A DNA stretch of 40,000 bases from an uncultured Gilvimarinus sp. (GTDB lineage: Bacteria; Pseudomonadota; Gammaproteobacteria; Pseudomonadales; Cellvibrionaceae): the NCBI RefSeq assembly GCF_963975215.1, contig NZ_CAXBFW010000017.1, positions 21,777-61,776 on the forward strand, read 5' to 3'. Under the pieces are notes generated by a model. The model was not told the origin of the DNA. It did no database searches and saw only the letters and a program-made list of their open reading frames with translations. The stretch's first letter is position 1; each line of letters begins with the position of its first letter. Below are positions 11,773-26,666 of this stretch, piece by piece. The position numbers and the translations under genes are program-made.

Positions 11773-11952
11773 GGCCCGCCTCCTGCCCCAACGAATAGTT
11801 AGTTATATGAAATTATTAAGTTTTAAAATTACGTAGCAAGCCGCACGTTTACTCGGGTTCATTAATAACTCGGTTATGTTTATGGCATAAGCTCTGTCCC
11901 ATTCAAGTAAACCAACGCCATAATCCATGACAAAAAAACCGCAAAATCGTAA

Positions 11953-12285
11953 CTATACCCAGGATAACAGTAAAACACCTACTATGATCAACTGGCATAC
12001 TACTGCCACGATAGCCCCCCACCGTAACCTATCGGCGTAAACTCGGGTAGAATCTTTTATACTCCAAAACTCATACCGTTTTGGCACAATCTGATCTAGC
12101 AGAAACGCCAAAGGCCCCAAAAAATAAAAACCTGAAAAACCAAAATGAATTTTCTCAGGCGTAGCAACCACAGAATAGGTTTTAGGGTCATCTTGTTCTA
12201 ATCGGGTAAGAAAACAACCAAGCGCGGCAACCAATGCAAGGTGTATAACAATAAGCAGCAACACAGAAACACCAGATGAAATCAT
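11953..12285 (-). CDS. Cassette ORF: hypothetical membrane protein (110 aa)
   Basis: ORF with hydrophobic N- and C-terminal helices, downstream of the degenerate attC at 12307-12400. Confidence 0.5.
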   Translation of the reverse strand: MISSGVSVLLLIVIHLALVAALGCFLTRLEQDDPKTYSVVATPEKIHFGFSGFYFLGPLAFLLDQIVPKRYEFWSIKDSTRVYADRLRWGAIVAVVCQLIIVGVLLLSWV

Positions 12286-12306
12286 AGAAAATCCCTTTCT
12301 TCTAAA

Positions 12307-12400
12307 AATACTAGCGGCTACCGAATCGGACGAGCTTTACCACCACACTATAAGTAGACACAAATTATCTTTTGTACTGGGCGTTGCCTGCGAGTTATTC
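12307..12400 (-). repeat. attC site (degenerate)
   Basis: The + strand reads AATACTAGCGGCTACCG ... GGCGTTGCCTGCGAGTTATTC. The arms are roughly complementary, and the left box is AATAC rather than ATAAC. Confidence 0.45.
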
Positions 12401-12411
12401 TCCGGCGGTGC

Positions 12412-12798
12412 TCAGGGGAACCACTCGGTATGCTGGTCTCCCTGCCGCCCAAAGTAAACAACGCGCTGACCGCGAAGAAACGCAAAATAACCACCAACTC
12501 CTGCGTGCATGGCCCGCTCGCAAAAAATACGAAATTTTTGGTCATGTTGCTGGCTATCAAAAATGGCCGATTTTAAAGCCGCCACATCAAAGTTCTGCGA
12601 AACAGATGGCAAGCCTTCAAATAACAGCGGAACGGTTACCGTTGAGTGATCGTCACTGTAAAAAGTAAATGTACAAGCAGCGTAGTCAACGTAATAGTAC
12701 TCAACACCTTCGGCAATGAGTTCTCTGATGATGACAGGAAAAGGCATCGAGCCATCGAGCGTGGCCCTCGCCAATAAATTTATTGTATCGGCATTCAT
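12412..12798 (-). CDS. Cassette ORF: DUF1398 family protein
   Basis: 128 aa with ...IFDSQQHDQKFRIFCERAMHAGVGGYFAFLRGQRVVYFGRQGDQHTEWFP, which resembles DUF1398. Confidence 0.6.
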   Translation of the reverse strand: MNADTINLLARATLDGSMPFPVIIRELIAEGVEYYYVDYAACTFTFYSDDHSTVTVPLLFEGLPSVSQNFDVAALKSAIFDSQQHDQKFRIFCERAMHAGVGGYFAFLRGQRVVYFGRQGDQHTEWFP

Positions 12799-12869
12799 AA
12801 GATGCTCCGACGTACTGGGTTGCCTAAAAACCAGTGATAGTTTTGGCCGACGGATGCAAAGCTTGTCAG
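12797..12869 (-). repeat. attC site (degenerate boxes)
   Basis: The + strand reads ATAAGATGCTCCGACG ... CCGACGGATGCAAAGCTTGTCAG. The arms pair partially. Both core boxes carry substitutions (ATAAG for ATAAC, GTCAG for GTTAG). Confidence 0.4.
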
Positions 12870-12881
12870 TTGCTGTGCATC

Positions 12882-13250
12882 CTATAACTTGCTGTAGCTT
12901 AATAGCCTGCTAATTTTGGTAAATTTTACGCTAGAAAACTCTATGACGTGACAAAAATCGACCTTCTTTCCCTTGTTATTTTGGCTAAAGCCATTTACGG
13001 CGCCAACTTTTCCATGCGACATTACGTGATCAATACTTACGAAAACAGTTTCAGCATCGCTTTCATTGAAGACACGCCCGATATCTTTCCCTGCTGCGAC
13101 TCTTTTATCAGAAAGCTCCCAAATAGCGCCATCAGCCAGATATTCACTCAAAAATTCAGTATCACCAGCCTCTAATGCAACGGCCACTTTCTCCACCAGT
13201 GTGTTTTTTGGCGAGTTACCACAATCCTTACTTCCGTTAATATCCACCAT
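12882..13250 (-). CDS. Cassette ORF: hypothetical protein, possibly NTF2/SnoaL-like fold
   Basis: ORF trimmed to MVDINGSK (ATG at 13250, GGAG 8 nt upstream) because the longer version runs into the attC. The NTF2-like call is a weak pattern impression. Confidence 0.5.
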   Translation of the reverse strand: MVDINGSKDCGNSPKNTLVEKVAVALEAGDTEFLSEYLADGAIWELSDKRVAAGKDIGRVFNESDAETVFVSIDHVMSHGKVGAVNGFSQNNKGKKVDFCHVIEFSSVKFTKISRLLSYSKL

Positions 13251-13266
13251 AGTTGGGGCTCCGTGC

Positions 13267-13365
13267 TTAACGCCCAGCGCAGACAATGCCAATGCGGAGC
13301 GATTTATGGGTCAATAGTTTGACCGCAGAAAGTAACACAAAGGTGCGAAGTGTTAGGTGTTATTC
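13267..13365 (-). repeat. attC site
   Basis: The + strand reads TTAACGCCCAGCGCAG ... GTGTTAGGTGTTATTC. The right box overlaps the stop codon of the ORF at 13360. Confidence 0.6.
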
Positions 13366-13755
13366 TGCCGCGGCTTTTGATGTACTGTTCTGTCTGACGG
13401 CTAGATAGGCGCCCAGAACCGCACAGCCAATAACAATTAAAAAATGCGGAATATAAATAGTGTAAGAACTAGAGTATGCGATAAACAAAACAGCTTCACA
13501 TGCGATCAGTGCGGACAAAACAATCAGCCACGGATTTGGCTTAAAAAACTTTACCGCAAAGAATAAAAGTAAAAATGTAACCACCCCATAACCCAGAAAC
13601 TGAGTTACAGCAACTTCCCAGATTATAAAGCTTGAACCAGATAGTATTTTGCCGATCTGTTCGGGAACAGCTATTGCGGCGGAAAATCCGGTAAGGTAGA
13701 CGCCAAGAAATGCTATTGCGATCCCTATAAATAAGCCAATTATTGTATCTTTCAT
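13360..13755 (-). CDS. Cassette ORF: hypothetical 4-TM membrane protein (131 aa)
   Basis: Strong RBS AAGGAGG upstream of the ATG at 13755. The sequence is very hydrophobic. Confidence 0.65.
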   Translation of the reverse strand: MKDTIIGLFIGIAIAFLGVYLTGFSAAIAVPEQIGKILSGSSFIIWEVAVTQFLGYGVVTFLLLFFAVKFFKPNPWLIVLSALIACEAVLFIAYSSSYTIYIPHFLIVIGCAVLGAYLAVRQNSTSKAAAE

Positions 13756-13773
13756 TTGATCCTCCTTGTTTGC

Positions 13774-13845
13774 ATAAGGCCCAGCTAAACGACGCGAGCT
13801 ACGAGCGCCCAGAACCGAAGGTTGTGTAGTACTTAGGCGTTCTTG
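13774..13845 (-). repeat. attC site (degenerate R')
   Basis: The centre CGCGAGCTACGAGCGCCCAGAACCGAAG is homologous to the attC at 23767-23842. The boxes are ATAAGGCC and GGCGTTCTTG, so the top-strand R' would read CTTATGC. Confidence 0.5.
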
Positions 13846-13866
13846 GCTGCGTGTATTGGCTGTACT

Positions 13867-14592
13867 TCACAGCTGTTGTCGAAGGGCTTTTTGAGTTAAC
13901 TCGCTCAGTCGGGCTCGCTGCTTGCCGAGCTCGTCAAAGTTATCTGGCGCTAGCCATTGTGAAAACGCCCGATACAAAGCCGGCCATTCGGTATCGATAA
14001 CCGAGAACCACGCGGTATCCCGGCTTCGCCCTTTGTACACTGTGGCTTGACGAAAAGTGCCTTCATACGTAAACCCAAGGCGTTTAGCGGCAGCACACGA
14101 AGGTGCATTCAAAGCATCGCATTTCCACTCATAGCGCCGATAGCCCAGATCGAAAGCTCTTTTCATCATCAAGAACATGGCCTCCGTAGCAACAGGAGTT
14201 CGCTTAAGCTGCTCGGAAAAACGAAGGTGACCAACCTCGATCGAGCCACTCGCGGGCATGATTCTCAGATAGCTCGCAACACCCACGGCTCGCCCATCCG
14301 ACTTCTGGATGATCGTGAAAAACAATGGATCATCGCCCTGACTCATTGTATCAAGCCACTCATGGTAGCGCTCAAAGGAACCAAAGGGGCCATAGGGAAG
14401 ATAGGTCCAACTTCCCCCATCGTGATCCTGCGCGTTCGCAGCATAGAGTTCTTCGGCATGGAGCTCCGGAGCAAGCGGCTCCAGGCGACAAAAGCGGCCT
14501 TCCATCGACTCCCGCGAAGGGCGCGCGGGCTCTACCCAGTCCGCAAGCGACTCTCCGACACGCTGACCGAAATCATTTATAAATTGAGTCAT
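13867..14592 (-). CDS. Cassette ORF: GNAT N-acetyltransferase (RimJ/RimL-like, Acetyltransf_3 type)
   Basis: 241 aa containing ...GSIEVGHLRFSEQLKRTPVATEAMFLMMKRAFDLGYRRYEWKCDALNAPSCAAAKRLGFTYEGTFRQ... Confidence 0.85.
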   Translation of the reverse strand: MTQFINDFGQRVGESLADWVEPARPSRESMEGRFCRLEPLAPELHAEELYAANAQDHDGGSWTYLPYGPFGSFERYHEWLDTMSQGDDPLFFTIIQKSDGRAVGVASYLRIMPASGSIEVGHLRFSEQLKRTPVATEAMFLMMKRAFDLGYRRYEWKCDALNAPSCAAAKRLGFTYEGTFRQATVYKGRSRDTAWFSVIDTEWPALYRAFSQWLAPDNFDELGKQRARLSELTQKALRQQL

Positions 14593-14600
14593 GTTTTTGC

Positions 14601-14713
14601 CTTACCGCCGAAGTAACCTGCGCTGCATGCGCAGTGAAGCTTTGGGGTAAGGTGGCAGGGCCACCCCAAAGCGGAACGTAGTATGCGGCGTCGGGTTGAC
14701 TGCCATGTTATGG
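14601..14713 (-). repeat. attC site of the parDE cassette
   Basis: The + strand reads CTTACCGCCGAAGTAACCTGCGCTGCATGCG ... GTATGCGGCGTCGGGTTGACTGCCATGTTATGG. The arms pair, and the central hairpin is CTTTGGGGT...ACCCCAAAG. Confidence 0.6.
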
Positions 14714-14757
14714 CCATATACCATTATATACCTATATTTGGTATTTGAGGTGCCGTT
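14714..14757 (+). promoter_or_regulatory. Probable parDE promoter/operator region
   Basis: AT-rich stretch with the inverted repeat ATACCA(14718-14723)...TGGTAT(14739-14744) immediately upstream of parD. I could not assign -35/-10 hexamers cleanly. Confidence 0.4.
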
Positions 14758-14997
14758 ATGTCTAAAAACACGAGTATGACCCTTGGTAACCACTTTGATG
14801 GTTTTATAGCGCAGCAAATTGCAGATGGTCGTTATGCCTCTGCGAGCGAGGTTATACGCGCAGGCCTTAGAATGCTCGAAGTAAATGAGCAAAAGCTTAT
14901 GACGCTGCGTCGAATGCTTGAAGATGGTGAGAATAGCGGTGTTGCTCAATACAGCTACGATAGCTTTATGCAAGAGCTTGATGATGAGCTTGGCTAA
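14758..14997 (+). CDS. parD: Type II antitoxin ParD (RHH)
   Basis: MSKNTSMTLGNHFDGFIAQQIADGRYASASEVIRAGLRMLE closely resembles Vibrio superintegron ParD. Its stop overlaps the parE start (TAATG). Confidence 0.9.
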   Translation: MSKNTSMTLGNHFDGFIAQQIADGRYASASEVIRAGLRMLEVNEQKLMTLRRMLEDGENSGVAQYSYDSFMQELDDELG

Positions 14998-15299
14998 TGG
15001 GAACATTCCAGCTCTCGATCCAAGCCAAAAATGACCTAAAGACCATTGCCGTCTATACCCAACATAAATGGGGGAAAGCTCAAAGACGAATTTATCTTCG
15101 GCAATTTGATGACGCTTTCCATTCAATTGCTGAAACTCCGGCCATAGGCATAACCTGTGACTTTGTAAGGCCTGGGTACAGGAAGTTTCCTGTTACGAGC
15201 CATATAGTATTTTATCGGAAAGTTTCAGACACCCATATAGAAATAGTCCGAATACTTCACAAAAGAATGGATGCTAAGCCGAGTCTTCTAAAGCCATAA
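14997..15299 (+). CDS. parE: Type II toxin ParE (RelE/ParE superfamily)
   Basis: ...IAVYTQHKWGKAQRRIYLRQFDDAF...GYRKFPVTSHIVFYRK...IEIVRILHKRMD is a typical ParE. Its TAA stop lies within the CCATAAC box of the next attC. Confidence 0.9.
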   Translation: MGTFQLSIQAKNDLKTIAVYTQHKWGKAQRRIYLRQFDDAFHSIAETPAIGITCDFVRPGYRKFPVTSHIVFYRKVSDTHIEIVRILHKRMDAKPSLLKP

Positions 15300-15329
15300 C
15301 GCTGCCAACACGCGCAGCTTTGTAGTGAA
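15296..15329 (-). repeat. attC half-site (R' arm only)
   Basis: ATAACGCTGCCAACACGCGCAGCTTTGTAGTGA is homologous to the left arm of the IS-disrupted attC (19369-19401). No matching right arm follows. Confidence 0.6.
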
Positions 15330-15344
15330 AATAGCAATATAATA

Positions 15345-15444
15345 TTGGGGACACCCACAAACTTGACAATGCCACACCTCTAAACCAATGACAATATTGG
15401 GGACACCCACAAACTTGACATTGGGGACACCCACAAACTTGACA
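15345..15444 (+). repeat. Three direct copies of the 24-nt motif TTGGGGACACCCACAAACTTGACA
   Basis: Copies lie at 15345-15368, 15397-15420 and 15421-15444. A second 20-nt motif, ATGCCACACCTCTAAACCAA, follows copies 1 and 3 (15369-15388, 15445-15464). Confidence 0.9.
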
Positions 15445-15509
15445 ATGCCACACCTCTAAACCAAAGTAAATTCAAGGAGCTCACTGCACCGCACGTTCAA
15501 GGAGGAACC

Positions 15510-16529
15510 ATGACTCAACCCCGTAAGCGCCTTATCTCTCTTGACGACACCCCTTTTTATCACTGCGTTGCCCGCTGTGTTCGACGCGCATTTTTATGTG
15601 GCTCTGGCAAGGACTATGACTTCGAGCATCGCCGGGGCTGGATCGTCCGTCGACTTAAACAACTGGCGGCGGTCTTTACCATCGACGTGGCCGCCTATGC
15701 GGTCATGTCCAATCACTATCATTTGGTCTTGCGTGTTCACCGGGAGCAGGCCGAAGCCTTAACTCGGGATGAAGTGATTGAACGCTGGTGCCAACTCTTT
15801 AAAGGGCCTCCATTGGTGCAGCGGTTCCGAGCGGGCGAGACGTTATCGCCGCCGGAACTGGAAGTCATAGATGGCATTGTCGATGATTGGCGCCAGCGCC
15901 TAGCGGATATCAGTTGGTTCATGAGGTGCCTCAATGAACCCATTGCCCGCTGGGCCAACCGTGAGGACAACTGCACCGGGCGATTCTTTGAAGGACGCTT
16001 TAAAAGCCAGGCGTTGTTGGATGAGCGAGCCGTATTAAGCTGTATGGCCTATGTGGACTTAAACCCCATCCGGGCCAGTATGGCCGATACCCCCGAGAAC
16101 TCGGACTTTACCAGCATTCAGGAGCGTCTGGGTATCGAGCCCACCACCCTCGTCGAATCACCTGCCGAAACGGATCGAGAAAAACCCTTGGCTCTGGCCG
16201 AGCTGATGCCATTTGCTGGCCGTGAGCATCAAGACCGCCAACCCAACCACCTGCCCTTTGATCTAAGCGACTACCTGGAGCTGGTAGACTGGACGGGACG
16301 CGCCATTCGCAACGACAAGCGCGGGGCCATAAACGAAAACCTGCCGAAAATTCTGGATCGGCTTGGCCTTCCTACAAAAGACTGGCTGGACACATGCTGC
16401 CATATCGAGCAGCGTTTTGGCCGAGCCATCGGCCCGGTCGCTAAAGTCAGTGAATTGTGCGAAGCACTGAATCTACACTGGATACACGGCATCAGACACT
16501 GCCGAAGCTTCTACTCGCAAACCGGCTGA
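15510..16529 (+). CDS. HUH-type Y1 transposase (Y1_Tnp/RAYT-like, 339 aa)
   Basis: HUH motif in SNHYHLVLRV and a tyrosine motif in MAYVDLNPIRASMA. AGGAGG lies upstream of the ATG. Confidence 0.75.
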   Translation: MTQPRKRLISLDDTPFYHCVARCVRRAFLCGSGKDYDFEHRRGWIVRRLKQLAAVFTIDVAAYAVMSNHYHLVLRVHREQAEALTRDEVIERWCQLFKGPPLVQRFRAGETLSPPELEVIDGIVDDWRQRLADISWFMRCLNEPIARWANREDNCTGRFFEGRFKSQALLDERAVLSCMAYVDLNPIRASMADTPENSDFTSIQERLGIEPTTLVESPAETDREKPLALAELMPFAGREHQDRQPNHLPFDLSDYLELVDWTGRAIRNDKRGAINENLPKILDRLGLPTKDWLDTCCHIEQRFGRAIGPVAKVSELCEALNLHWIHGIRHCRSFYSQTG

Positions 16530-16622
16530 CGCCAATCCTATCAAAAGCCCCTTTGTGCTCCTGCGGGCAGGAACGCCTGTGTCCGAAATACGCCCTATGC
16601 GAGAAAAACTCGCCACTCGCCA

Positions 16623-18400: not shown

Positions 18401-18402
18401 CT

Positions 18403-18792: not shown

Positions 18793-18811
18793 CCGGAGTT
18801 TCCTTGTAGCC

Positions 18812-20625: not shown

Positions 20626-20682
20626 GTTATCACCACTTAGATTGAACAGTGAGTTACTGTCCGTGAAAGTGGTGCAAGTTCA

Positions 20683-20734: not shown

Positions 20735-20736
20735 GC

Positions 20737-21099: not shown

Positions 21100-21115
21100 C
21101 GATTTCTACTTGACG

Positions 21116-21202
21116 TTTAACGCCGCTATAAAAGGCGCGTGTTAGCGCGTCCAGTGAAGGCCATCTTTTTGGCCGGAACGATTTTTGATAGCTTTGTTAA
21201 GC
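21116..21202 (-). repeat. attC site
   Basis: The + strand reads TTTAACGCCGCTATAAAAGGCGCGTGTTAGCGCGTCCAGTG ... GATTTTTGATAGCTTTGTTAAGC. The arms pair, and the centre is the conserved one. Confidence 0.85.
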
Positions 21203-21204
21203 CT

Positions 21205-21684
21205 TTATTCGATGCCACGATTTTGACCTAATATTTCAGTTCGAATCCAAATGTTACCTTTGTCAAAACCTTCTAGGTCGAACGACCCTCCAAGTGCGGG
21301 GTCTAGTTTAGGGTAATAGATTTGTAATTCACCTAAAGGCCCTAACCTATTCTCCAGAATTTCTAAGTCTCTAGGGTTAATTGGGTACAAACAATACTCA
21401 GGAAAACTCTCCTCATCTAGGATGGTTTCTTTAAATTCTTGCAGGCTCTCGAATACACCATAACCTTTGCAGTTGTTTCCCGGCATACTTGGGTAAAAAA
21501 CCAAATATTCACTAGACTCTGGAGAGAATAAAAATATTGCCCCTGTTGCTGAGTACCCAATTACCTCAGTGTAATGCCACATATGCTTTTCCCACACACC
21601 GAGAATTTCACGATGCATAGGTTTATCAAAAAGCGTGTAGATAACCTTTTCATGCTTCTTCCTGCCAAATAGTTTAGATAGCAT
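21205..21684 (-). CDS. Cassette ORF: hypothetical protein (159 aa)
   Basis: ORF bounded by attC sites. The sequence is soluble and rich in aromatic residues. I have only a vague impression that it looks immunity-protein-like. Confidence 0.55.
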   Translation of the reverse strand: MLSKLFGRKKHEKVIYTLFDKPMHREILGVWEKHMWHYTEVIGYSATGAIFLFSPESSEYLVFYPSMPGNNCKGYGVFESLQEFKETILDEESFPEYCLYPINPRDLEILENRLGPLGELQIYYPKLDPALGGSFDLEGFDKGNIWIRTEILGQNRGIE

Positions 21685-21700
21685 ACGTTGCTCTCAGAGG

Positions 21701-21792
21701 CTTAACGCCGCAACCAACGGCGAGCGAAACAACGTGTAGCGAGTCCAGCCCGGCGTGTTTTTGCCGGGCGGTGTTGGGTTGCTTTGTTAGTG
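21701..21792 (-). repeat. attC site
   Basis: The + strand reads CTTAACGCCGCAACCAACGGCGAGCG ... GGCGGTGTTGGGTTGCTTTGTTAGTG. The arms pair well. Confidence 0.85.
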
Positions 21793-22260
21793 TTCATTTT
21801 TAAATTTCTCCACCCAATCAAGACTTTCATTGAATATACCTGAATCAGTCTCTTCGATAGTGGAACAGTCTGAGTGATACCAGCCGTACATGTTTTCTAT
21901 TCCTATGTTGTCGCCCACGTACTTCTTAATGCCTTTGTGAAGATCGAAACTTTCAATGTCATCAAGCAGTTGCCGAAACTGCTTTGAAGGGCTTACATTT
22001 CCCTGGCTAATAAGCAATATGTGATATCTCAACAATACCCACACTGCCTGCTCGAAACTTGGAACCGCATAACCTTTTTCCTCTACAAAGCTTTCGAAAT
22101 ACTCTGATACAGGATTCCAGTGCTCAGGTCCGTCATCCATGATATTAAGTAAATGCTCCGAGTAAACACCGTCTGTAAGTTTTTGGTCTGCAAATTGGAC
22201 CAAATCTTCAGTATTTAATTTACCTACGACATATTTCGCTATGAATATTCTGTCTTCCAT
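21787..22260 (-). CDS. Cassette ORF: hypothetical protein (157 aa)
   Basis: Trimmed to MEDRIFIAKY (ATG at 22260), because the GTG-initiated extension to 22338 lies inside the attC at 22284-22383. Confidence 0.5.
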   Translation of the reverse strand: MEDRIFIAKYVVGKLNTEDLVQFADQKLTDGVYSEHLLNIMDDGPEHWNPVSEYFESFVEEKGYAVPSFEQAVWVLLRYHILLISQGNVSPSKQFRQLLDDIESFDLHKGIKKYVGDNIGIENMYGWYHSDCSTIEETDSGIFNESLDWVEKFKNEH

Positions 22261-22283
22261 GGATGGCTCGAAGTCTTGTAACA

Positions 22284-22383
22284 CTAACGCCGTGTTCTTT
22301 TGAATTTTTGGAGTGGATGCTTTTGTGTTACCAAACACAAAAGGAGCAACGGAAATAATTTCAACAGGAACACCTTGTTAGAA
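22284..22383 (-). repeat. attC site
   Basis: The + strand reads CTAACGCCGTGTTCTTTTGAATTTTTGG ... GGAAATAATTTCAACAGGAACACCTTGTTAGAA. The arms pair well. Confidence 0.8.
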
Positions 22384-22785
22384 CACATTGCCGTTTACCT
22401 GTGACCAGTGATGTGGCATAAGCTGTTTTAAAGGGACAAACTTAATTGCGTTGCCTGGATTGCTAATAGCTACTAGGACATCTGGCCCCCAGTATATAAG
22501 CCTTTCTTGGCAAATGCCGCATGGACTTAATAGCATAAAGTCATCCGCTTCGCTTTCGCGGCACAGACACAAGCTATGAGTCACTGGCACATTGAGCTTA
22601 TTCGCTTCAAGCAGTGCCCCAACCTCCATACACAACGACAATGCATCGTTTTCAACTTCCGGTGCAACGCTTGTTAAAATACGCCCGTCCTTGAGACGAA
22701 CCGAAGCGGCGCCACCAAATCCAACTGGATATCTCGACTCGATTAATTCTTTGGCCGAGTTAAATAATTCCTGCTCTATGCTCAT
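22378..22785 (-). CDS. Cassette ORF: cytidine/deoxycytidylate deaminase-fold protein (blasticidin-S deaminase-like)
   Basis: 135 aa with zinc-ligand motifs C-M-E (LSLCMEVGA) and PCGxCxE (SPCGICQERL) at CDA-like spacing. Confidence 0.75.
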   Translation of the reverse strand: MSIEQELFNSAKELIESRYPVGFGGAASVRLKDGRILTSVAPEVENDALSLCMEVGALLEANKLNVPVTHSLCLCRESEADDFMLLSPCGICQERLIYWGPDVLVAISNPGNAIKFVPLKQLMPHHWSQVNGNVF

Positions 22786-22887
22786 ACTCGACTCGTTCTA
22801 ACAGTGTATTAGGCGGAATTTCGTTTAAACAACACAAACTCCGGCACCTTTTTATCGTCTTTTCACTAAAAAATCGAACGCATCGGC

Positions 22888-22933
22888 GTCAGGCCTTACA
22901 ATTCACACCGAAGTGTAAAATGTAAGGCCTGAC
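22888..22933 (-). repeat. 46-nt near-perfect hairpin with a UUCG loop
   Basis: The minus strand reads GTCAGGCCTTACATTTTACAC-TTCG-GTGTGAATTGTAAGGCCTGAC. This gives about 21 paired positions, including one mismatch and one G-T pair. Confidence 0.7.
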
Positions 22934-22934
22934 C

Positions 22935-23118
22935 CTAAAGTTTCAGCTCTTTGGCCACTTGGGCTTGCGTGACACCCGGCTTCTCAGACCGTTTTATGGC
23001 CTCTTTACGAAACTCTTCAGTGTAATGCTGATGTTTTTTACGTGCCATTTTGGACACCTCCATATAGGGCAAATATAACTATACAGGGTGTCTACTTTTT
23101 GTGGGTAACTTGGACTCA
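22935..23118 (-). pseudogene. IS3-family IS remnant: left inverted repeat plus the first 37 codons of an OrfA
   Basis: The minus strand reads TGAGTCCAAGTTACCCACAAAAAGTAGACACC, which resembles the IS3 IRL. It is followed by GGAGG and the ORF MARKKHQHYTEEFRKEAIKRSEKPGVTQAQVAKELKL* (22935-23048). No orfB or right end is present. Confidence 0.6.
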
Positions 23119-23196
23119 TAACGCCGCAATAAAAGGCGAGCGTTAGCGAGTCCAGCCCACGTTTTTTGTGGGCGATTTTTCATTGCCTTGTTATGC
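23118..23196 (-). repeat. attC site
   Basis: The + strand reads ATAACGCCGCAATAAAAGGCGAGCGTTAGCGAGTCCAGCCC ... GATTTTTCATTGCCTTGTTATGC, with the conserved centre. Confidence 0.85.
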
Positions 23197-23745
23197 GCTG
23201 TACGTGCCATTTTTAACTTTCCTAGTATCGGACATCCACCACTCACACATATCCCAAAAGTCCAATTTAGTAGCCTCATTGCCCATACTCTTGCGGATTT
23301 CTATTAGGAAGTTACCTAATAGCTCCATCATATCTTTGAGAAAGTCTAGTTCACCTGATTTTTGAGCCTCTTCCATGTTGTAGAGGTACTGCATTAGGTT
23401 GTTGTAAGCTTTAACGACAGAATCATTTGCCATTAACGCAAGTTTAAAGCCGTGACGCCTATACTCAAGGGTCAACATGGCGCTGGTTGCAACATCGCCT
23501 TTATCCTTGCCTTTATTCTTCTTGTCAGATTCCCAGGCAGCATCTGACATTAGTAAGATTATGAAAGGCTCTAGTATTTTGTTGTAAATCTCAATCCGAT
23601 CGTCTCGTAGCTTATTTTCGAGATCTATTTTTCTCTCGATGCTATTTTTTGCTTTCCAGCCAATAGATGAGATTATTAGGACAATTATAGGCGTTGCAAT
23701 ACTTCCAATTGCAGTAACAAAATCTAACCAATGTTTTTCTTCCAT
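23191..23745 (-). CDS. Cassette ORF: hypothetical membrane-anchored protein (1 N-terminal TM plus a helical domain)
   Basis: ATG at 23745 (the ORF track uses TTG at 23751). TM segment FVTAIGSIATPIIVLIISSIGW, then a charged, helical-looking region of about 150 aa. Confidence 0.6.
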   Translation of the reverse strand: MEEKHWLDFVTAIGSIATPIIVLIISSIGWKAKNSIERKIDLENKLRDDRIEIYNKILEPFIILLMSDAAWESDKKNKGKDKGDVATSAMLTLEYRRHGFKLALMANDSVVKAYNNLMQYLYNMEEAQKSGELDFLKDMMELLGNFLIEIRKSMGNEATKLDFWDMCEWWMSDTRKVKNGTYSA

Positions 23746-23766
23746 GCTCAATTCTCAATTTATCGC

Positions 23767-23842
23767 ATAACGCCTCACATAAGCCGCGCGAGGTACGAGC
23801 GTCGGGCGAACGAAGTGAGCGGACTTAATGTGATTGTTAGCA
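23767..23842 (-). repeat. attC site
   Basis: The + strand reads ATAACGCCTCACATAAGCCGCGCGAGGTACGAGCG ... GCGGACTTAATGTGATTGTTAGCA. Confidence 0.75.
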
Positions 23843-24022
23843 GACTTTGCCATTTGCACGGCGGGTCCAGATTGCACCTAACACTACGCCGAATGCGGTG
23901 CCAAACCCCATAGCTTGTGCCATGTCACCGGAGGCAGCACCGAAACCTGCCCCAACGGCTACACCTGTGGCAATACCAATTCCCATCTTGTTCTTAAAGC
24001 AAGCTTTGCAAAACTCTTCCAT
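23837..24022 (-). CDS. Cassette ORF: small glycine-zipper membrane protein (61 aa)
   Basis: Start MEEFCKAC (ATG at 24022, AGGAA 7 nt upstream). GxxxG-rich segment GIGIATGVAVGAGFGAASG...GFGTAFGVVLGAIW. Confidence 0.5.
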   Translation of the reverse strand: MEEFCKACFKNKMGIGIATGVAVGAGFGAASGDMAQAMGFGTAFGVVLGAIWTRRANGKVC

Positions 24023-24084
24023 GTCGTAGTTCCTATTGCGTAGGAGGCCTTGAATGCAGCCTCGGTGAATGAACGGGTGAACTG

Positions 24085-24161
24085 CTAACGCCGCAAGCAA
24101 AGGCGCGCGTTAGCGCGTCCAGTGGAGCGAAGCGGAACGATTTTGCCTTGCCTTGTTATGG
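24085..24161 (-). repeat. attC site
   Basis: The + strand reads CTAACGCCGCAAGCAAAGGCGCGCGTTAGCGCGTCCAGTGGAGCGAAGCGGAACGATTTTGCCTTGCCTTGTTATGG. Confidence 0.9.
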
Positions 24162-24163
24162 CT

Positions 24164-24553
24164 TTACACATGACGCCCTTCATGATCCCAAAGAATAAAG
24201 GTTTGATTTTCTGTGGATGACATTGATTTTATGAGTCGCTCATTATTAAAAGTTGGAATATCCTGAAGGCGCTGCAGTAATTCACCGGCTCCAGTGGCCT
24301 CACTGGGATAAGTTATAACGCCGTCTTTAGTTGCCAAATGCCACCACACATCTTCAACAAATGGACCTTCATCAGTTGTTTCGACTGCAACGCCAATAAG
24401 TCCATTCCACGCAATAGACTGAGGCTCCTTTTCTGGCCAATGCACCCACGCATTATTTTCGTCAAACCACACCTTTACAGAGGCATATGGGCTTTTTGCA
24501 TCTTGCTGTTCGTTTTTTTTATTACTGAAGAGCGAAGATATCCATTTAAACAT
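24164..24553 (-). CDS. Cassette ORF: hypothetical protein (copy B of the duplicated cassette)
   Basis: The protein is identical to 18403-18792, with the same RBS context. Confidence 0.6.
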   Translation of the reverse strand: MFKWISSLFSNKKNEQQDAKSPYASVKVWFDENNAWVHWPEKEPQSIAWNGLIGVAVETTDEGPFVEDVWWHLATKDGVITYPSEATGAGELLQRLQDIPTFNNERLIKSMSSTENQTFILWDHEGRHV

Positions 24554-24572
24554 TCGGAGTTTCCTTGTAGCC

Positions 24573-24669
24573 ATAACGCCGGTATATGCGGCGGCTGAAA
24601 TGTAGGGAGGAACGACCGAAATGGAAGCCGTCCGAGCCGCGCAGCGGCGCCATAATACCTTTGTTAGGC
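24573..24669 (-). repeat. attC site
   Basis: The + strand reads ATAACGCCGGTATATGCGGCGGCTG ... CAGCGGCGCCATAATACCTTTGTTAGGC. The arms pair well. Confidence 0.85.
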
Positions 24670-25278
24670 CTTGGCTAAGTTAAGTTTAGTACGAGCAGCA
24701 CGAACAAAAGATATGTGAGCTTCCACTACTGAATCTGCTGCTTCGTTGATGATCTTTGCCTCCTCTTCGAAGCGCTGCATATGCTCAGAGTCGCTTCTAT
24801 GCCCATTTACGATCACAGCCTGCAGCCCCGCCAGATTTGGACTTGTGTATTTAGCCACGGCCATACCGAACTCGACAGCGCTTTCTAGTAAGCTTTTTCT
24901 ATAGGACTCGAGATCGCTGTCAAGAAACTCATGCTCTGGGTTATCCCATTCGTAGAGAAACTGATTGATGGGGCGTATCTCTTCGCTTCTAAAGCTACCT
25001 AGAAAGTCATGTTCTTTCAGAAACTTTATGATGCCGTTGGAGGGAAGAGCATCCAGCAGCTTCTTCGCCAACGCAACGTCGTTAGGGTGCCCTTGCTTAG
25101 CGAGATTTCCGCTAATGCTCGACGAATCGTGGACGTCTGCGGCAATGAAGCCCGCTAGAGTAAGCGTAAAAGCCACCACAGGCTCCCACTCGAATGTCCA
25201 GTCCGCAGGATTCCACAGGAACCACGCAACGTTGAACAGCATGCCAGCAATTGTCAAGTACTTAGCCAATTTGGCCAT
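24664..25278 (-). CDS. First cassette ORF: hypothetical protein with 2 N-terminal TM helices and a ~150-aa soluble domain
   Basis: 204 aa. TM segments YLTIAGMLFNVAWFLW and VVAFTLTLAGFIAADV. The ATG at 25278 lies 19 nt downstream of the attI core. Confidence 0.6.
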   Translation of the reverse strand: MAKLAKYLTIAGMLFNVAWFLWNPADWTFEWEPVVAFTLTLAGFIAADVHDSSSISGNLAKQGHPNDVALAKKLLDALPSNGIIKFLKEHDFLGSFRSEEIRPINQFLYEWDNPEHEFLDSDLESYRKSLLESAVEFGMAVAKYTSPNLAGLQAVIVNGHRSDSEHMQRFEEEAKIINEAADSVVEAHISFVRAARTKLNLAKA

Positions 25279-25296
25279 TTAGTCAGAAGCTCCCTA

Positions 25297-25303
25297 GCCT
25301 AAC
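25297..25303 (-). other. attI recombination core (GTTAGGC on the minus strand)
   Basis: A perfect GTTRRRY box at the intI-proximal junction of the first cassette. I could not define the full extent of attI or the integrase-binding repeats. Confidence 0.55.
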
Positions 25304-25584
25304 AGCTAATTCATGCGACTCAGTCGCACTTTCGCCTGTCACCCTATCCCCAGTAGAAACTGGATGAAGTTGGAGATGGAAGCTGTTGAAAGCACAGGGG
25401 AAATAGACATATTCTGACAGCTCCTTGTCTGGGGAAAGTGCGACTGACTTTAATTGAAAGCCTAATGTAATGTCTTTTTCTGTACTGCGCAAGCGCCGCT
25501 CAACCCATTGAATTAATTAAGAAAATATTATTTGCACTCAACTTATCTTCTCACATTGTTCAAGGGTTTCCCCTGAACACGGAT

Positions 25585-25613
25585 TTGACCGGAGTGTGAC
25601 CCCCAACTAAACT
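25585..25613 (+). promoter_or_regulatory. Putative intI promoter (-35 TTGACC, 17-nt spacer, -10 TAAACT)
   Basis: Hexamers at 25585-25590 and 25608-25613. The -10 overlaps the LexA box. GGAG RBS at 25636-25639. Confidence 0.55.
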
Positions 25614-25627
25614 GTATATAAACACAG
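25612..25627 (+). promoter_or_regulatory. LexA (SOS) box CTGTATATAAACACAG
   Basis: An exact CTGT-N8-ACAG palindrome 20 nt upstream of the intI ATG, overlapping the putative -10. Confidence 0.8.
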
Positions 25628-25646
25628 CATAAGCACGGAGCTAATC

Positions 25647-26666
25647 ATGGAGAGACCCTCGGATATCCCAGTGTATGTACCTGAAAAATCGGCCAGATTT
25701 ATGGATCAGCTACGTGCATTTATGCGATTTAGGCAGCTCTCTTACCGCACCGAGCAAACTTATGTTCACTGGATTTTAAAATTTATACGCTTTCACAATA
25801 AGGCCCATCCATCGACCCTTGATGAAAAAGCGGTAGAAGTTTGGCTTACCCATTTAGCCACCGAACGAAACAACGCGGTGGCAACCCAGAAAATTGCACT
25901 TAATGCGATAGTGTTTCTTTATCGTCAATTTTTACGTCAGCCACTTGAGAATATGAATTTTAAGCGAGCTAAGCAGTCGCAGCGAGTCCCTACCGTGCTT
26001 TCACATACGGAGGCTAAGACGATTATTGATTTAGCCACTAACCCTTATCGGCTTATGTTTGCACTGATGTATGGCGCTGGGTTGCGACAAGCAGAGTGTT
26101 TGTCATTGCGCATACTGGATATAGATATTGAAAACCTTATGTTAGTAGTTCGCCATGGCAAGGGGCGTAAAGACCGAACAACCCTGTTACCTAAAGCGCT
26201 GCTAATTGATATCCAGCAGCAAATAGAACACGTCAGCGCTATTCATGCGATGGACTTGCAACGGGGCTTTGGCGAGGTTTATTTACCCGACTCACTCGCC
26301 AGAAAGTATCCCCGCGCAGCGTTTCAAACTAAGTGGCAATATTTATTTCCATCCAGTAGGCCAGGGCCTTGTCCACGCACGGGCGTTATTCGTCGACACC
26401 ATTTGCACCACAGCGCGGTACGAAAGCATTTAACCACCTGTGTTAATAGCTCCTCGATTGCTAAACATATATCTTGCCACACCTTCCGACACTCATTTGC
26501 CACAAGGCTTTTAGAGCAGGGCTATGATCTTAGAACCATACAGCAGTTGTTGGGTCATACGGATGTAAAGACTACTGAAATTTATACGCATGTCGTGAAG
26601 CAAGGAAAGCTAGGCGTGATAAGCCCTTTTGACGGTGTTCGGGAAGAATATGCTCGCTACGCCTAA
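25647..26666 (+). CDS. intI: Integron integrase IntI (tyrosine recombinase)
   Basis: 339 aa. Contains the integron-specific patch ...YLPDSLARKYPRAAFQTKWQYLFPSS... between patches II and III, and the catalytic contexts GLRQAE, HTFRHSFAT and LGHTDVKTTEIYTHV. Confidence 0.95.
   Translation: MERPSDIPVYVPEKSARFMDQLRAFMRFRQLSYRTEQTYVHWILKFIRFHNKAHPSTLDEKAVEVWLTHLATERNNAVATQKIALNAIVFLYRQFLRQPLENMNFKRAKQSQRVPTVLSHTEAKTIIDLATNPYRLMFALMYGAGLRQAECLSLRILDIDIENLMLVVRHGKGRKDRTTLLPKALLIDIQQQIEHVSAIHAMDLQRGFGEVYLPDSLARKYPRAAFQTKWQYLFPSSRPGPCPRTGVIRRHHLHHSAVRKHLTTCVNSSSIAKHISCHTFRHSFATRLLEQGYDLRTIQQLLGHTDVKTTEIYTHVVKQGKLGVISPFDGVREEYARYA

What the first reader, a model, noticed from the sequence alone, without database searches (positions are those of the whole stretch)
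11870..26666. Complete sedentary-type chromosomal integron with about 16 cassettes, most encoding unassignable proteins
intI is full length and carries the integron-specific insertion and the catalytic residue contexts. Diverging from it, minus-strand ORFs alternate with imperfect palindromes that on the + strand read YTAACGCC ... CTTGTTAKNN. Read on the minus (top) strand, these are RYYYAAC ... GTTRRRY. I could pair the arms by eye for at least 10 sites. Several proximal sites share the centre GGCG(C/A)G(C/T)GTTAGCG(C/A)GTCCAG. That homogeneity is typical of sedentary chromosomal integrons rather than mobile ones. The array also looks visibly more AT-rich than the flanking acnA and receptor genes. 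About 12 of the 16 cassette products belong to no family I recognise, so this is the accessory region where an undescribed function is most likely to sit.
Basis: partly seen in the sequence, partly recalled or inferred. Interest (0 to 1): 0.85.

Follow-up and report, generated by a model that had tools for sequence, protein, structure and literature searches.

The report
Gilvimarinus chromosomal integron, about 13 cassettes
This is a real chromosomal integron, a gene-capture platform with its own recombinase and about 13 captured gene cassettes, sitting at a fixed place next to the aconitase gene of marine Gilvimarinus bacteria; it is a well-understood kind of element, here scarred by several other mobile elements.

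Summary
The finding is real and its core interpretation is right. IntI (25647-26666) passes the curated integron-integrase model. It aligns without gaps to the solved Vibrio integrase, including the integron-specific domain. An attC model built only from sites in other bacteria finds 10 sites (E<0.001). All lie on the minus strand between 14600 and 24669. The next hit scores 11.8 bits.

Comparison with G. agarilyticus (IntI 98% identical), G. polysaccharolyticus, G. chinensis and two metagenome contigs shows the same acnA-intI junction. Homology breaks at the attI crossover (25300-25303). No cassette is shared among those compared. That supports a sedentary integron with fast cassette turnover.

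Corrections:
- The array ends at 13265-13271, not 11870, so there are about 13 cassettes, not 16.
- The attC sites are heterogeneous (mean identity 59%). Conserved location, not attC homogeneity, supports "sedentary".
- The array is interrupted by an IS3-family element, a truncated group IIC intron in an unusual sense orientation, a RAYT-like element and an internal deletion.
- One cassette is duplicated.

Nine of 12 distinct cassettes have no family assignment.

Verdict: a new member of a known kind, of modest interest.

The parts
25647..26666 (+). intI, integron integrase (339 aa)
   Evidence: TIGR02249 scores 399.5 bits against a cutoff of 265. It aligns to VchIntIA 2A3V over residues 16-329, E 6e-84, with no gap in the additional domain. 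It is 98% identical to the G. agarilyticus IntI at the same locus.
25612..25627 (+). LexA-box-like palindrome CTGTATATAAACACAG, 20 bp upstream of the intI start
   Evidence: It is the only CTGT-N8-ACAG match in the 40-kb window. It is conserved in G. agarilyticus. It overlaps the second hexamer of a promoter-like site at 25585-25613. SOS control is inferred, not shown.
25527..25554 (-). Candidate cassette promoter Pc (GTGAGA-16-AATAAT)
   Evidence: This is a consensus scan match only and is weak evidence.
25297..25303 (-). attI core GTTAGGC, with the crossover at G|TT
   Evidence: Homology with G. agarilyticus (92% nt) and G. polysaccharolyticus ends at window position 25300. Homology with metagenome contig L092 ends at 25291. 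The G. agarilyticus sequence reads gctGTTATATG at the same point.
24577..25302 (-). Cassette 1: ORF 24664-25278 (204 aa, two N-terminal hydrophobic helices plus a helical domain, no family) and attC 24571-24669
   Evidence: attC scores 31.4 bits, E 6e-6. Only 13 homologues were found, and the one whose context was examined is a cassette in a Cellvibrio integron. The AF2 model has pLDDT 81 and no PDB fold match.
24089..24576 (-). Cassette 2: ORF 24164-24574 (136 aa, no family) and attC 24083-24161
   Evidence: attC scores 31.8 bits. The cassette is duplicated at 18327-18819 with 99.8% identity.
23771..24088 (-). Cassette 3: small glycine-rich membrane ORF within 23837-24100 and attC 23765-23842
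   Evidence: attC scores 34.2 bits and 30.2 bits with the class 1-derived model.
23122..23770 (-). Cassette 4: ORF 23191-23751 (186 aa, no family above cutoff) and attC 23116-23196
   Evidence: attC scores 38.6 bits. By my count from the sequences, it is about 93% identical to an attC in locus L039 (IntI 51% identical); the shared motif was confirmed.
22288..23121 (-). Cassette 5: IS3-type orfA fragment (22938-23048), 21-nt-arm hairpin (22888-22933), blasticidin-S-deaminase-like cytidine deaminase ORF 22378-22785, and attC 22282-22383
   Evidence: NF006155 scores 174 bits against a cutoff of 129. The best PDB match is 3B8F, 'putative blasticidin S deaminase', E 1e-47. The orfA fragment matches HTH_Tnp_1 at 24.0 bits. 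The hairpin is. attC scores 24.3 bits.
21706..22287 (-). Cassette 6: ORF 21787-22338 (no family) and attC 21700-21793
   Evidence: attC scores 28.0 bits.
21121..21705 (-). Cassette 7: ORF 21205-21684 (159 aa, no family) and attC 21115-21202
   Evidence: attC scores 27.5 bits and 27.0 bits with the class 1-derived model.
19373..21120 (-). Cassette 8: ORF 20737-21099 (120 aa, no family); its attC (20735-19367) is split by an IS
   Evidence: With the IS and one copy of the target duplication removed, the 85-nt site folds into the canonical R-box, spacer and L-box hairpin, -19.8 kcal/mol. It could not be scored with the model because only held sequence can be searched.
19402..20682 (-). IS3-family insertion sequence (1281 bp) with 26-bp inverted ends and a TCA target duplication
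   Evidence: orfA matches HTH_Tnp_1 and orfB matches rve, rve_3 and HTH_21. The ends and duplication were read from the sequence.
18816..19372 (-). Cassette 9: ORF 18941-19384 (no family) and attC 18810-18929
   Evidence: attC scores 39.3 bits, the best in the window.
18327..18815 (-). Cassette 10: a duplicate of cassette 2; its attC (18321-18400) is interrupted in R' after GT
   Evidence: It is 99.8% identical over 493 bp to 24088-24580, and the identity stops at the second base of GTT. attC scores 23.5 bits.
16712..18326 (-). 3'-truncated group IIC intron in the same orientation as the cassettes
   Evidence: Rfam RF02001 scores 117.7 bits and RF01998 scores 53.8 bits. The RT/maturase matches TIGR04416 at 410 bits. 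It is 49% identical to the ltrA of a class 1 integron IIC-attC intron up to residue 400, where it breaks. No domain V/VI match was found in 14500-18500.
15344..16711 (+). RAYT-like (HUH) transposase unit: three direct GGGGACACCCACAAACTTGACA repeats, gene 15510-16529, and an inverted copy at 16688-16703
   Evidence: The weak NF047646 match scores 33 bits. Homologues are named RayT or transposase, and the 100% match comes from an uncultured Gilvimarinus sp.. The same repeat architecture occurs at other loci in G. xylanilyticus and G. algae and in the array of L039.
15284..15327 (-). 3' half of an attC (R' GTTATGG at 15294-15300), with the 5' half deleted
   Evidence: It resembles the 3' half of attC8. 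No intron 3' part or 3' exon lies between it and the RAYT unit, which implies a deletion.
14601..15299 (-). Cassette 11: parD (14758-14997) and parE (14997-15299) on the opposite strand, and attC 14600-14713
   Evidence: ParD_antitoxin scores 114 bits and ParE_toxin 69.6 bits. attC scores 26.8 bits, and the model places R' at GGTAAGG, a mutated GTT.
13778..14600 (-). Cassette 12: GNAT acetyltransferase ORF 13867-14592 and a degenerate attC remnant at 13772-13859
   Evidence: Acetyltransf_3 and Acetyltransf_1 match. Both core triplets are mutated (CCAATAC ... CTTATGC). There is no model hit and no R-box in the fold.
13265..13777 (-). Cassette 13: membrane ORF 13360-13755 and the terminal attC 13265-13358, which is the end of the array
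   Evidence: The model hit is weak, 11.8 bits. The last attC of G. agarilyticus ends with the same GTTAAGCACGGAGCCC and is followed by the same flank.
12412..13264 (-). Conserved distal flank, not cassettes: SnoaL-like ORF (12882-13292) and DUF1398 ORF (12412-12798)
   Evidence: Both ends of the SnoaL-like gene and the start of the DUF1398 gene are present, in decayed form, right after the last attC of G. agarilyticus. No attC-like hit was found there.
26697..29432 (-). acnA, the conserved proximal flank
   Evidence: Aconitase domains match. It is adjacent to intI in L091, L092, L093, L002 and L001.
8890..9792 (-). PAS-GGDEF gene, the conserved outer distal flank
   Evidence: Pfam matches are. 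It is 90% identical at the nucleotide level to the gene 3.6 kb from intI in G. agarilyticus.

Best explanation
The region is a chromosomal integron of an uncultured Gilvimarinus species (Cellvibrionaceae). It is fixed between acnA and a PAS-GGDEF gene.

Proposed mechanism:
1. A LexA-box-like site overlaps the intI promoter, so IntI is probably made during the SOS response.
2. IntI binds folded single-stranded attC hairpins. Here the bottom strand is the window's + strand.
3. IntI excises cassettes by attC x attC recombination.
4. IntI re-inserts cassettes at attI (G|TT at 25303/25302), where a promoter in the intI-attI spacer would express them.

The array runs from 25302 to 13265 and holds about 13 cassettes.
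- Three cassette types have family assignments: a blasticidin-S-deaminase-like cytidine deaminase, a reverse-oriented ParDE toxin-antitoxin pair, and a GNAT acetyltransferase.
- Nine distinct cassettes have no family.

The proximal seven cassettes look freely mobilisable. The rest of the array is compromised.
- An IS3-family element splits attC8.
- A dead group IIC intron destroys R' of attC10.
- A RAYT-like element and a deletion remove the following sites.
- The three distal cassettes have damaged sites and are probably frozen.

Shown here: the identity of IntI, the identity, strand and structure of the attC sites, the conserved location, and cassette turnover that breaks exactly at attI.
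Inferred from established integron biology: SOS control, Pc activity, present-day recombination activity, and the immobility of the distal cassettes.
For: IntI:
- It passes the curated integron-integrase model.
- It aligns to VchIntIA over residues 16-329, with no gap in the additional domain.

attC sites:
- Model R2 was built from 11 class 1 attCs taken from plasmid integrons. It recovers nine of my by-eye sites at the same or nearly the same coordinates and on the same strand.
- On 80 loci carrying IntI relatives, all 59 R2 hits lie on the minus strand, and those I checked lie upstream of intI.
- Model R3, built from those 59 sites, gives 10 window hits of 23.5-39.3 bits. All are on the minus strand within 14600-24669. 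The next hit scores 11.8 bits, and hits outside the array score 9.9 bits or less.
- The L-box helix has compensatory changes at 8 of 9 pairs. Overall, 80.7% of cells are paired, against 61.5% in shuffles and 23-48% in slid controls.
- A bulged base sits at the canonical L-box position in the 9 sites whose full alignment was printed.
- Bottom-strand DNA folds match those of known attCs.

Location and turnover:
- acnA-intI adjacency holds in G. agarilyticus (IntI 98%), contig L092 (98%), G. polysaccharolyticus (91%), MAG L001 (87%) and G. chinensis (70%).
- Homology ends at 25300, or 25291 for L092.
- G. agarilyticus has four different cassettes and the same post-array flank.
- No window cassette has a homologue in those arrays.
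- A 99.8% identical cassette copy at a second position argues for recent cassette movement or duplication.

Regulation and orientation:
- The LexA-box match is unique in the window and sits 20 bp from the intI start.
- GC skew is negative in 36 of 40 one-kb windows. That places the attC bottom strands on the leading-strand template, as in 25 of 30 SCIs in PMC5371416.
Against: - No direct evidence of present-day activity exists. There are no excised circles and no strain-level comparison within the species.
- Pc is only a 9-of-12 consensus match.
- The LexA pattern alone is expected 0.45 times per window by chance.
- The array has 13 attC sites, below the >19-site criterion for SCIs.
- The attC sites are not homogeneous.
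- G. xylanilyticus has no integrase gene call and no attC hit at its acnA locus. The element is therefore not universal in the genus.
- Sites 8, 13 and the half site rest on reading and folding, not on a model score.
- The covariation counts come from a model-fitted alignment, which favours the structure.
Confidence: 0.93

Rival explanations
1. It is a mobile integron, carried by a transposon, plasmid or island and recently acquired, rather than a resident of the chromosome.
For: - The array is small, with 13 sites.
- The attC sites are as heterogeneous as those of mobile integrons.
- Several transposable elements lie inside it.
- attC types are shared with distant genera.
- G. xylanilyticus lacks it at the acnA locus.
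Against: - The same acnA-intI junction and the same distal flank occur in several Gilvimarinus lineages. IntI identity (98, 91 and 70%) mostly tracks AcnA identity (97, 89 and 90%), with G. chinensis as the exception.
- No tni or Tn402-like genes, plasmid genes or element ends lie beside intI. Housekeeping genes flank it.
- IntI is only 42.7% identical to IntI1.
Confidence: 0.04
2. It is an inactive relic. The integrase and sites are recognisable, but the system no longer recombines, and the differences between genomes come from old events or ordinary deletions.
For: - Five of about 14 site positions are damaged: one split by an IS, one cut by an intron, one half-deleted, one with mutated cores, and one weak terminal site.
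- Mobile elements have accumulated in the array.
- No experimental data exist.
Against: - intI is an intact ORF with all catalytic contexts.
- It is 98% identical to the G. agarilyticus copy, yet the two arrays share no cassette. The flanks are 92% identical at the nucleotide level and homology breaks exactly at G|TT.
- Contig L092 is 94% identical in the flank, and its homology also ends at attI.
- A 99.8% identical cassette duplicate is bounded by cassette junctions.
- Nine attC sites score well.
Confidence: 0.1
3. The palindromes are not attC sites. They are another kind of intergenic repeat (REP-like elements or terminators) that happens to lie near a tyrosine recombinase.
For: - They are imperfect palindromes after ORFs, as terminators and REPs are.
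- A RAYT-like gene lies in the region.
Against: - Models trained only on known class 1 attCs, or on sites next to other intI genes, hit them at exact coordinates and on one strand only.
- The conserved RYYYAAC and GTTRRRY boxes, the unpaired spacer and the bulged base are all present.
- The repeats linked to the RAYT-like gene have a different sequence (GGACAnCCA...).
- No terminator-like T runs were seen in the sequence read.
Confidence: 0.01

Closest known systems
Sedentary chromosomal integrons of Vibrio (V. cholerae superintegron, VchIntIA, VCR sites)
   Same: - The integrase family is the same: 2A3V is the best solved relative, E 6e-84, with the additional domain aligned.
- intI diverges from the array.
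- Most cassettes are ORFans.
- A toxin-antitoxin cassette lies in reverse orientation.
- The attC bottom strands are probably on the leading-strand template.
- The chromosomal location is conserved within the genus.
   Different: - There are about 13 cassettes instead of about 180.
- The attC sites are heterogeneous (mean 59% identity) rather than near-identical VCRs.
- The array is interrupted by an IS, an intron remnant and a RAYT-like unit.
Xanthomonas chromosomal integrons fixed next to ilvD (recalled from Gillings et al. 2005 PNAS; not checked here)
   Same: The array is small to medium in size and sits beside one housekeeping gene across a genus. Cassette content is lineage-specific. The distal end has decaying sites.
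   Different: The anchor gene is different (acnA). Here intI is intact, whereas, as I recall, many Xanthomonas copies are inactivated.
Class 1 mobile integrons (IntI1; aadA, dfrA and blaVIM cassettes)
   Same: The attC architecture is the same. A model built from 11 class 1 attCs recognises the window's sites. The dfrA25, dfrA14 and arr-2 attCs share the TAACAAAGC...GCGGCGTTA ends.
   Different: - IntI is only 42.7% identical to IntI1.
- There is no Tn402 or 3'-conserved-segment context.
- The element has conserved chromosomal flanks.
- No clinical antibiotic-resistance cassette was recognised, apart from a possible blasticidin-S deaminase.
Group IIC-attC introns (S.ma.I2 type; example in pVIM_Pse-KSS14, locus L084)
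   Same: The RT/maturase is 49% identical, and the 5' ribozyme segments are similar. The intron is inserted in an attC core, two bases into the GTT triplet.
   Different: Known IIC-attC introns sit antisense to the cassettes, in the attC bottom strand at R'' (TTGT/T). This one is sense-oriented, sits in the top strand at R' (GCGT/T), and is truncated, with no domain V/VI.
[quoted passage not shown] 2012, as cited in PMC7923331)
   Same: It has the same orientation as the cassettes and is inserted in the attC top strand.
   Different: That intron is complete and lies in a clinical mobile integron. I did not compare the sequences.

Membership tests
Integron (complete: intI + attI + attC array) | Tyrosine recombinase of the IntI clade, with the integron-specific additional domain and the catalytic residues | tested here: met
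   TIGR02249 scores 399.5 bits against a cutoff of 265. The alignment to VchIntIA over residues 16-329 has no gap in the additional domain. XerC/XerD matches split around residues ~196-250. The R, K, HxxR, H and Y contexts are present.
Integron (complete: intI + attI + attC array) | attC sites with R''/R' boxes, an unpaired spacer, an L-box with an extrahelical base, and a variable loop, all on one strand and close to intI | tested here: met
   Independent models R2 and R3 give 10 hits at E<0.001, all on the minus strand. Covariation is, the bulged base, and the folds. IntegronFinder's own model could not be run.
Integron (complete: intI + attI + attC array) | An attI site next to intI where cassettes are inserted | tested here: met
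   The GTTAGGC core lies at 25297-25303. Homology with two related genomes ends at 25300, and with contig L092 at 25291.
Integron (complete: intI + attI + attC array) | A cassette promoter Pc reading into the array | tested here: inconclusive
   There is only a 9-of-12 consensus match on the minus strand at 25554-25527.
Sedentary chromosomal integron (criteria quoted in PMC5371416) | Present in all sequenced genomes of the species, at a fixed chromosomal site | tested here: inconclusive
   No second genome of the same species was available. At genus level, the acnA-intI junction is conserved in four lineages and two metagenome contigs. It is absent from G. xylanilyticus.
Sedentary chromosomal integron (criteria quoted in PMC5371416) | More than 19 attC sites | tested here: not met
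   There are about 13 sites, counting damaged ones. This criterion is an alternative to the first one, not a requirement.
Sedentary chromosomal integron (criteria quoted in PMC5371416) | High sequence identity among the attC sites of the array | tested here: not met
   Mean pairwise identity is 59%, against 56% for unrelated class 1 attCs. Only sites 2/10, 3, 4, 6 and 7 mostly reach 62-75% with one another.
Sedentary chromosomal integron (criteria quoted in PMC5371416) | Not on a plasmid or transposon, and the integrase is not of mobile classes 1-5 | tested here: met
   Housekeeping flanks are conserved across species. IntI is 42.7% identical to IntI1, and the best plasmid match is 48%. Classes 2-5 were not compared individually.
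Sedentary chromosomal integron (criteria quoted in PMC5371416) | attC bottom strands on the leading-strand template (true of 25 of 30 SCIs) | tested here: inconclusive
   GC skew is negative in 36 of 40 one-kb windows, which fits. The replication origin is not known from a 40-kb window.
Group IIC-attC intron | Class C ribozyme and RT/maturase | tested here: met
   RF02001 and RF01998 match. TIGR04416 scores 410 bits. The RT is 49% identical to a IIC-attC ltrA. A class-level phylogeny was not made.
Group IIC-attC intron | Inserted in the attC bottom strand at R'' (TTGT/T), antisense to the cassettes | tested here: not met
   The intron is on the cassette strand. It is inserted after GCGT of R' in the top strand. 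The comparator L084 and the literature show the antisense rule.
Group IIC-attC intron | Complete intron with catalytic domains V and VI | tested here: not met
   No RF00029-type match was found in 14500-18500. The RT breaks at residue ~400.

The most novel reading that the evidence does not exclude
The intron remnant may belong to a group IIC lineage that uses the attC top-strand hairpin. It would insert at R' (GT/T) in the same orientation as the cassette genes. In that geometry the intron is co-transcribed with a cassette ORF, which is the arrangement needed by the proposed intron-mediated route of cassette formation (Leon and Roy model, recalled from memory, not checked). The RAYT-like element and the IS both lie at or near attC hairpin apexes. 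Together these would make this array a natural record of single-strand-hairpin-seeking elements attacking both strands of attC sites.
Probability: 0.15. Interest if true: 0.55.

Novelty: new member of a known kind. Interest (0 to 1): 0.3.

Why it matters
This is a clean, well-bounded example of a small chromosomal integron outside Vibrio. Both flanks are conserved across a genus, and close relatives (IntI 98% identical) share no cassette, so cassette turnover can be measured directly.

It also shows that 'sedentary' and 'homogeneous attC' can be uncoupled. The attC types here are shared with other genera, which points to a common marine cassette pool.

The nine unassigned cassette families are candidates for functional screens, but nothing found here singles any of them out. 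The first cassette's family was found in only 13 of 5.8 billion proteins searched, and the one homologue whose context was examined is also an integron cassette.

The sense-oriented group IIC intron is a rare arrangement, with one published precedent cited in PMC7923331.

Tried and rejected
- A covariance model of attC arms only (R1, 24+24 nt from 8 class 1 sites) found none of the sites. The model's length window cannot span the 30-70-nt variable loops. It returned only short hairpins at 5767-5791 and 22893-22928. I replaced it with full-length models.
- Exact look-ups of the window's IntI and of the 100% identical RAYT-like protein returned no contig. The source assembly could not be retrieved. 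The organism is inferred from the name attached to P0001.
- PADLOC and PHROGs gave no meaningful hit for the unassigned cassette proteins scanned. There is therefore no support for a known defence system.
- A PDB sequence search of the RAYT-like protein found nothing.
- I considered whether ORFs 11953-13292 and the DUF7010 gene are cassettes. I rejected this for lack of any attC signal, and because the SnoaL-like and DUF1398 genes lie beyond the last crossover shared with G. agarilyticus. They could still be ancient cassettes whose sites have decayed.
- I considered whether the second 339-aa ORF (15510-16529) is a second integrase. It is not. It is a HUH/RAYT-like protein.

Full report
**What is there.** The window comes from an uncultured Gilvimarinus species. 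One of its proteins is 100% identical to a protein a public source names as from that organism. Its AcnA is 97% identical to that of G. agarilyticus.

The ORF at 25647-26666 (+) is an integron integrase.
- It scores 399.5 bits against the curated TIGR02249 model (cutoff 265), while XerC/XerD models stay far below their cutoffs.
- It aligns over residues 16-329 with the solved V. cholerae integrase 2A3V (E 6e-84). The alignment has two single-residue gaps, neither in the segment that Xer recombinases lack.
- The catalytic R, K, HxxR, H and Y contexts are present, as are the W and HH residues aligned with those I recall binding extrahelical bases in the Vibrio enzyme.
- A CTGT-N8-ACAG palindrome, the only one in the window, lies 20 bp upstream of the start codon. 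It is conserved in G. agarilyticus. This fits the known SOS control of integrases, but SOS control is inferred here.

**Testing the attC sites.** No attC family exists in Rfam, and IntegronFinder could not be run, so I built equivalents.
- I extracted 11 attC sites of known resistance cassettes from class 1 integrons on plasmids: blaVIM-2, aac(6')-IIc, aadA1, aadA2, dfrA25, dfrA14, aac(6')-Ib, arr-2, cmlA5, catB3 and blaOXA-10.
- Their bottom strands fold as R-box, 2-nt spacer and L-box with bulges on the 3' arm. The window's sites fold the same way.
- A model of the arms alone failed for a technical reason.
- The full-length model R2 found nine of my by-eye sites at the same or nearly the same coordinates, all on the minus strand. 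Five had E<0.1.
- As a control of the model, R2 was run on 80 loci encoding IntI relatives from other bacteria. All 59 hits at E<0.05 lay on the minus strand, and those I checked lay upstream of intI.
- Model R3, built from those 59 sites and so containing no window sequence, gave 10 window hits of 23.5-39.3 bits (E 5e-8 to 7e-4). All are on the minus strand between 14600 and 24669.
- The next hit scored 11.8 bits, at 13265-13383. Everything outside the array scored 9.9 bits or less.
- On the aligned window sites, 8 of 9 L-box pairs show compensatory changes. Overall, 80.7% of cells pair, against 61.5% in shuffles and 23-48% when partners are slid. The alignment is model-fitted, so this is supportive rather than independent.

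**Boundaries and cassette count.** G. agarilyticus has acnA, a 98% identical intI, four small cassettes, and then the PAS-GGDEF gene that lies at 8890-9792 in the window.
- Nucleotide homology (92%) runs from acnA through intI and stops at window position 25300, inside the attI core GTTAGGC (25297-25303). The same break is seen with G. polysaccharolyticus, and at 25291 with metagenome contig L092, which is 94% identical in the flank.
- At the other end, the last attC of G. agarilyticus ends GTTAAGCACGGAGCCC. It is followed by remnants of the SnoaL-like and DUF1398 genes. The window has the same sequence from 13271 downward.
- The array therefore spans 25302-13265. ORFs 11953-13292 and the DUF7010 gene lie outside it and show no attC signal.
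- G. agarilyticus lacks window 11268-12696 and has a truncated DUF1398 gene. This looks like a deletion on its side.
- Counting crossovers gives 13 cassette units. Nine have intact, significant attC sites. One attC is cut by an intron, one is split by an IS, one has both core triplets mutated, and the terminal one is weak. There is also a half site at 15284-15327.

**Sedentary or mobile.** acnA-intI adjacency holds in G. agarilyticus, G. polysaccharolyticus, G. chinensis, a Cellvibrionaceae MAG and contig L092.
- IntI identity is 98, 91, 70, 87 and 98% respectively, and mostly tracks AcnA identity; G. chinensis is the exception.
- No window cassette has a homologue in the arrays of these relatives. 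No transposon or plasmid genes flank intI.
- This supports a resident, vertically inherited platform with rapid cassette turnover.
- G. xylanilyticus has no integrase gene call and no attC hit at its acnA locus, so the element has been lost there or was gained after that split.
- By the published criteria, the >19-site rule is not met. The 'all strains of the species' rule could not be tested.
Mean pairwise attC identity is 59%, like unrelated class 1 sites (56%). Only sites 2/10, 3, 4, 6 and 7 form a subfamily, mostly at 62-75%.
- That subfamily's motif also occurs in integrons of Amphritea, Cycloclasticus and Ca. Reddybacter. One Reddybacter site is about 93% identical to the window's attC4 by my count from the sequences.
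- GC skew is negative in 36 of 40 windows. This places the attC bottom strands on the leading-strand template, the usual SCI orientation. This is an inference from skew alone.

**Cassette content.**
- Assigned: a cytidine deaminase of the blasticidin-S-deaminase type (NF006155 at 174 bits; PDB 3B8F, E 1e-47).
- Assigned: a ParD/ParE pair on the opposite strand, as is common for toxin-antitoxin cassettes.
- Assigned: a GNAT acetyltransferase.
- Nine distinct cassettes have no Pfam or NCBIfam family above cutoff. Those scanned gave no meaningful PADLOC or PHROGs match.
- Cassette 1 belongs to a family with only 13 members in the 5.8-billion-protein search. The Cellvibrio sp. PSBB023 member, the only one whose context I examined, is also an integron cassette. 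Its AlphaFold model has pLDDT 81 and shows two N-terminal helices plus a helical domain. It has no significant PDB fold match.
- Cassette 2 is duplicated as cassette 10, with 493 bp at 99.8% identity bounded by cassette junctions.

1. A 1281-bp IS3-family element (19402-20682, 26-bp ends, TCA duplication) splits attC8 near its apex.
2. A group IIC intron remnant occupies 18326-~16712.
   - It starts after GCGT of the R' box of attC10, on the cassette strand.
   - Its RT is 49% identical to the ltrA of a IIC-attC intron in a class 1 integron, and breaks at residue ~400.
   - No domain V/VI is detectable.
   - Typical IIC-attC introns are antisense, in the bottom strand at TTGT/T. I verified this on plasmid locus L084 and in the literature, which cites one top-strand precedent in E. 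cloacae.
3. A ~1.36-kb unit encoding a 339-aa HUH/RAYT-like protein abuts the broken RT.
   - It has three direct GGGGACACCCACAAACTTGACA repeats and one inverted copy.
   - The same architecture occurs at unrelated loci in G. xylanilyticus and G. algae, and in the cassette array of L039.
   - Beyond it there is no intron 3' part, only the 3' half of an attC. A deletion has therefore removed the rest of the intron and an unknown number of cassettes.
4. Cassette 5 carries a 37-codon IS3-type orfA fragment and a 21-nt-arm hairpin.

**How it most likely works.** The standard integron mechanism applies: SOS-induced IntI, folding of attC bottom strands, attC x attC excision, and attI x attC insertion next to Pc.
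- The seven proximal cassettes have intact sites and should be mobilisable.
- Cassettes 8 and 9 could only move together with the IS.
- Cassette 10 has lost its R'.
- The ParDE cassette lies between a half site and a site whose best R' reads GGTAAGG.
- The GNAT and membrane-protein cassettes are separated by a dead site. The distal block is therefore probably fixed.
- These mobility statements are inferences from site integrity.

**Verdict.** This is a genuine, complete chromosomal integron of a known kind. No paper in the searched library mentions Gilvimarinus together with integrons. Even so, the element is what genome-wide integron surveys routinely report. The unusual intron orientation and the rare cassette families are the only mildly surprising features.

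Noticed in passing
window 16712-18326 (minus strand): The group IIC intron remnant is in the same orientation as the cassettes. It is inserted in the attC top strand at R' (GCGT/T). Known IIC-attC introns are antisense, in the bottom strand. It lacks the RT C-terminus and domains V/VI.
   Followed up: partly
window 15344-16711; L039 5000-8450; L089 9900-11400; L090 9900-11250: A 339-aa HUH/RAYT-like gene is flanked by 1-3 direct GGACAnCCAnAnAnTTGACA repeats on one side and an inverted copy on the other. It sits at different loci in different Gilvimarinus species and inside two integron arrays, so it behaves as a mobile unit. The protein family is very large (8000 or more hits).
   Followed up: partly
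window 15327 versus 20683/19401: The breakpoint of the half attC lies within about 3 nt of where the IS3-family element sits in the related attC8. Both are near the apex of the hairpin. This could be a fragile or targeted spot, or a coincidence.
   Followed up: no
window 23116-23196; L039 8492-8571; also L016 ~3038 and L072 ~5431: One attC type (centre CTGGACTCGCTAACGCTCGCC) is about 93% identical, by my count, between this array and one in a genus whose IntI is only 51% identical. The motif recurs in Amphritea and Cycloclasticus arrays. attC types follow the cassette pool, not the host integrase.
   Followed up: partly
window 14601-15327: The reverse-oriented ParDE cassette is flanked by a truncated attC and by an attC whose best-fitting R' is GGTAAGG instead of GTT... 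The toxin-antitoxin cassette looks immobilised.
   Followed up: partly
window 18327-18819 and 24088-24580: A whole cassette is present twice at 99.8% identity (one mismatch in 493 bp), 5.8 kb apart in the same array.
   Followed up: yes
window 22888-23048: Cassette 5 carries a 37-codon N-terminal fragment of an IS3-type orfA, followed by a hairpin with 21-nt arms, just upstream of the cytidine deaminase gene. It may be an IS remnant or a miniature derivative.
   Followed up: partly
L094 (G. xylanilyticus) 10737-13300: At the acnA locus of G. xylanilyticus there is no integrase gene call and no attC hit. Two small same-strand genes (a GNAT and a DUF6500) follow acnA. The integron was lost there or was never present.
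   Followed up: partly
L090 (G. algae) 15724-15784: A lone, strong attC-like hit (34.6 bits) lies far from any integrase, beside RVT_1 and SLATT_5 genes. It may be a solitary attC near a defence locus.
   Followed up: no
window 5767-5791: A 25-nt palindrome (GCTTAACGATCC..AGGCGTTAAAC) mimics an attC R-box. It is the best off-array hit of all three attC models (9-14 bits, not significant).
   Followed up: no
window 11268-12696 versus L091 16286-16323: G. agarilyticus lacks this 1.4-kb stretch, which holds most of the DUF1398 gene, a 110-aa membrane ORF and the DUF7010 gene. The genes are small, AT-rich and on the cassette strand. They might be ancient cassettes whose sites have decayed.
   Followed up: partly
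L096 (Cellvibrio sp. PSBB023) 1920-12591: Another chromosomal integron carries a homologue of cassette 1. Its array also contains IS3-family and IS110-family elements.
   Followed up: no
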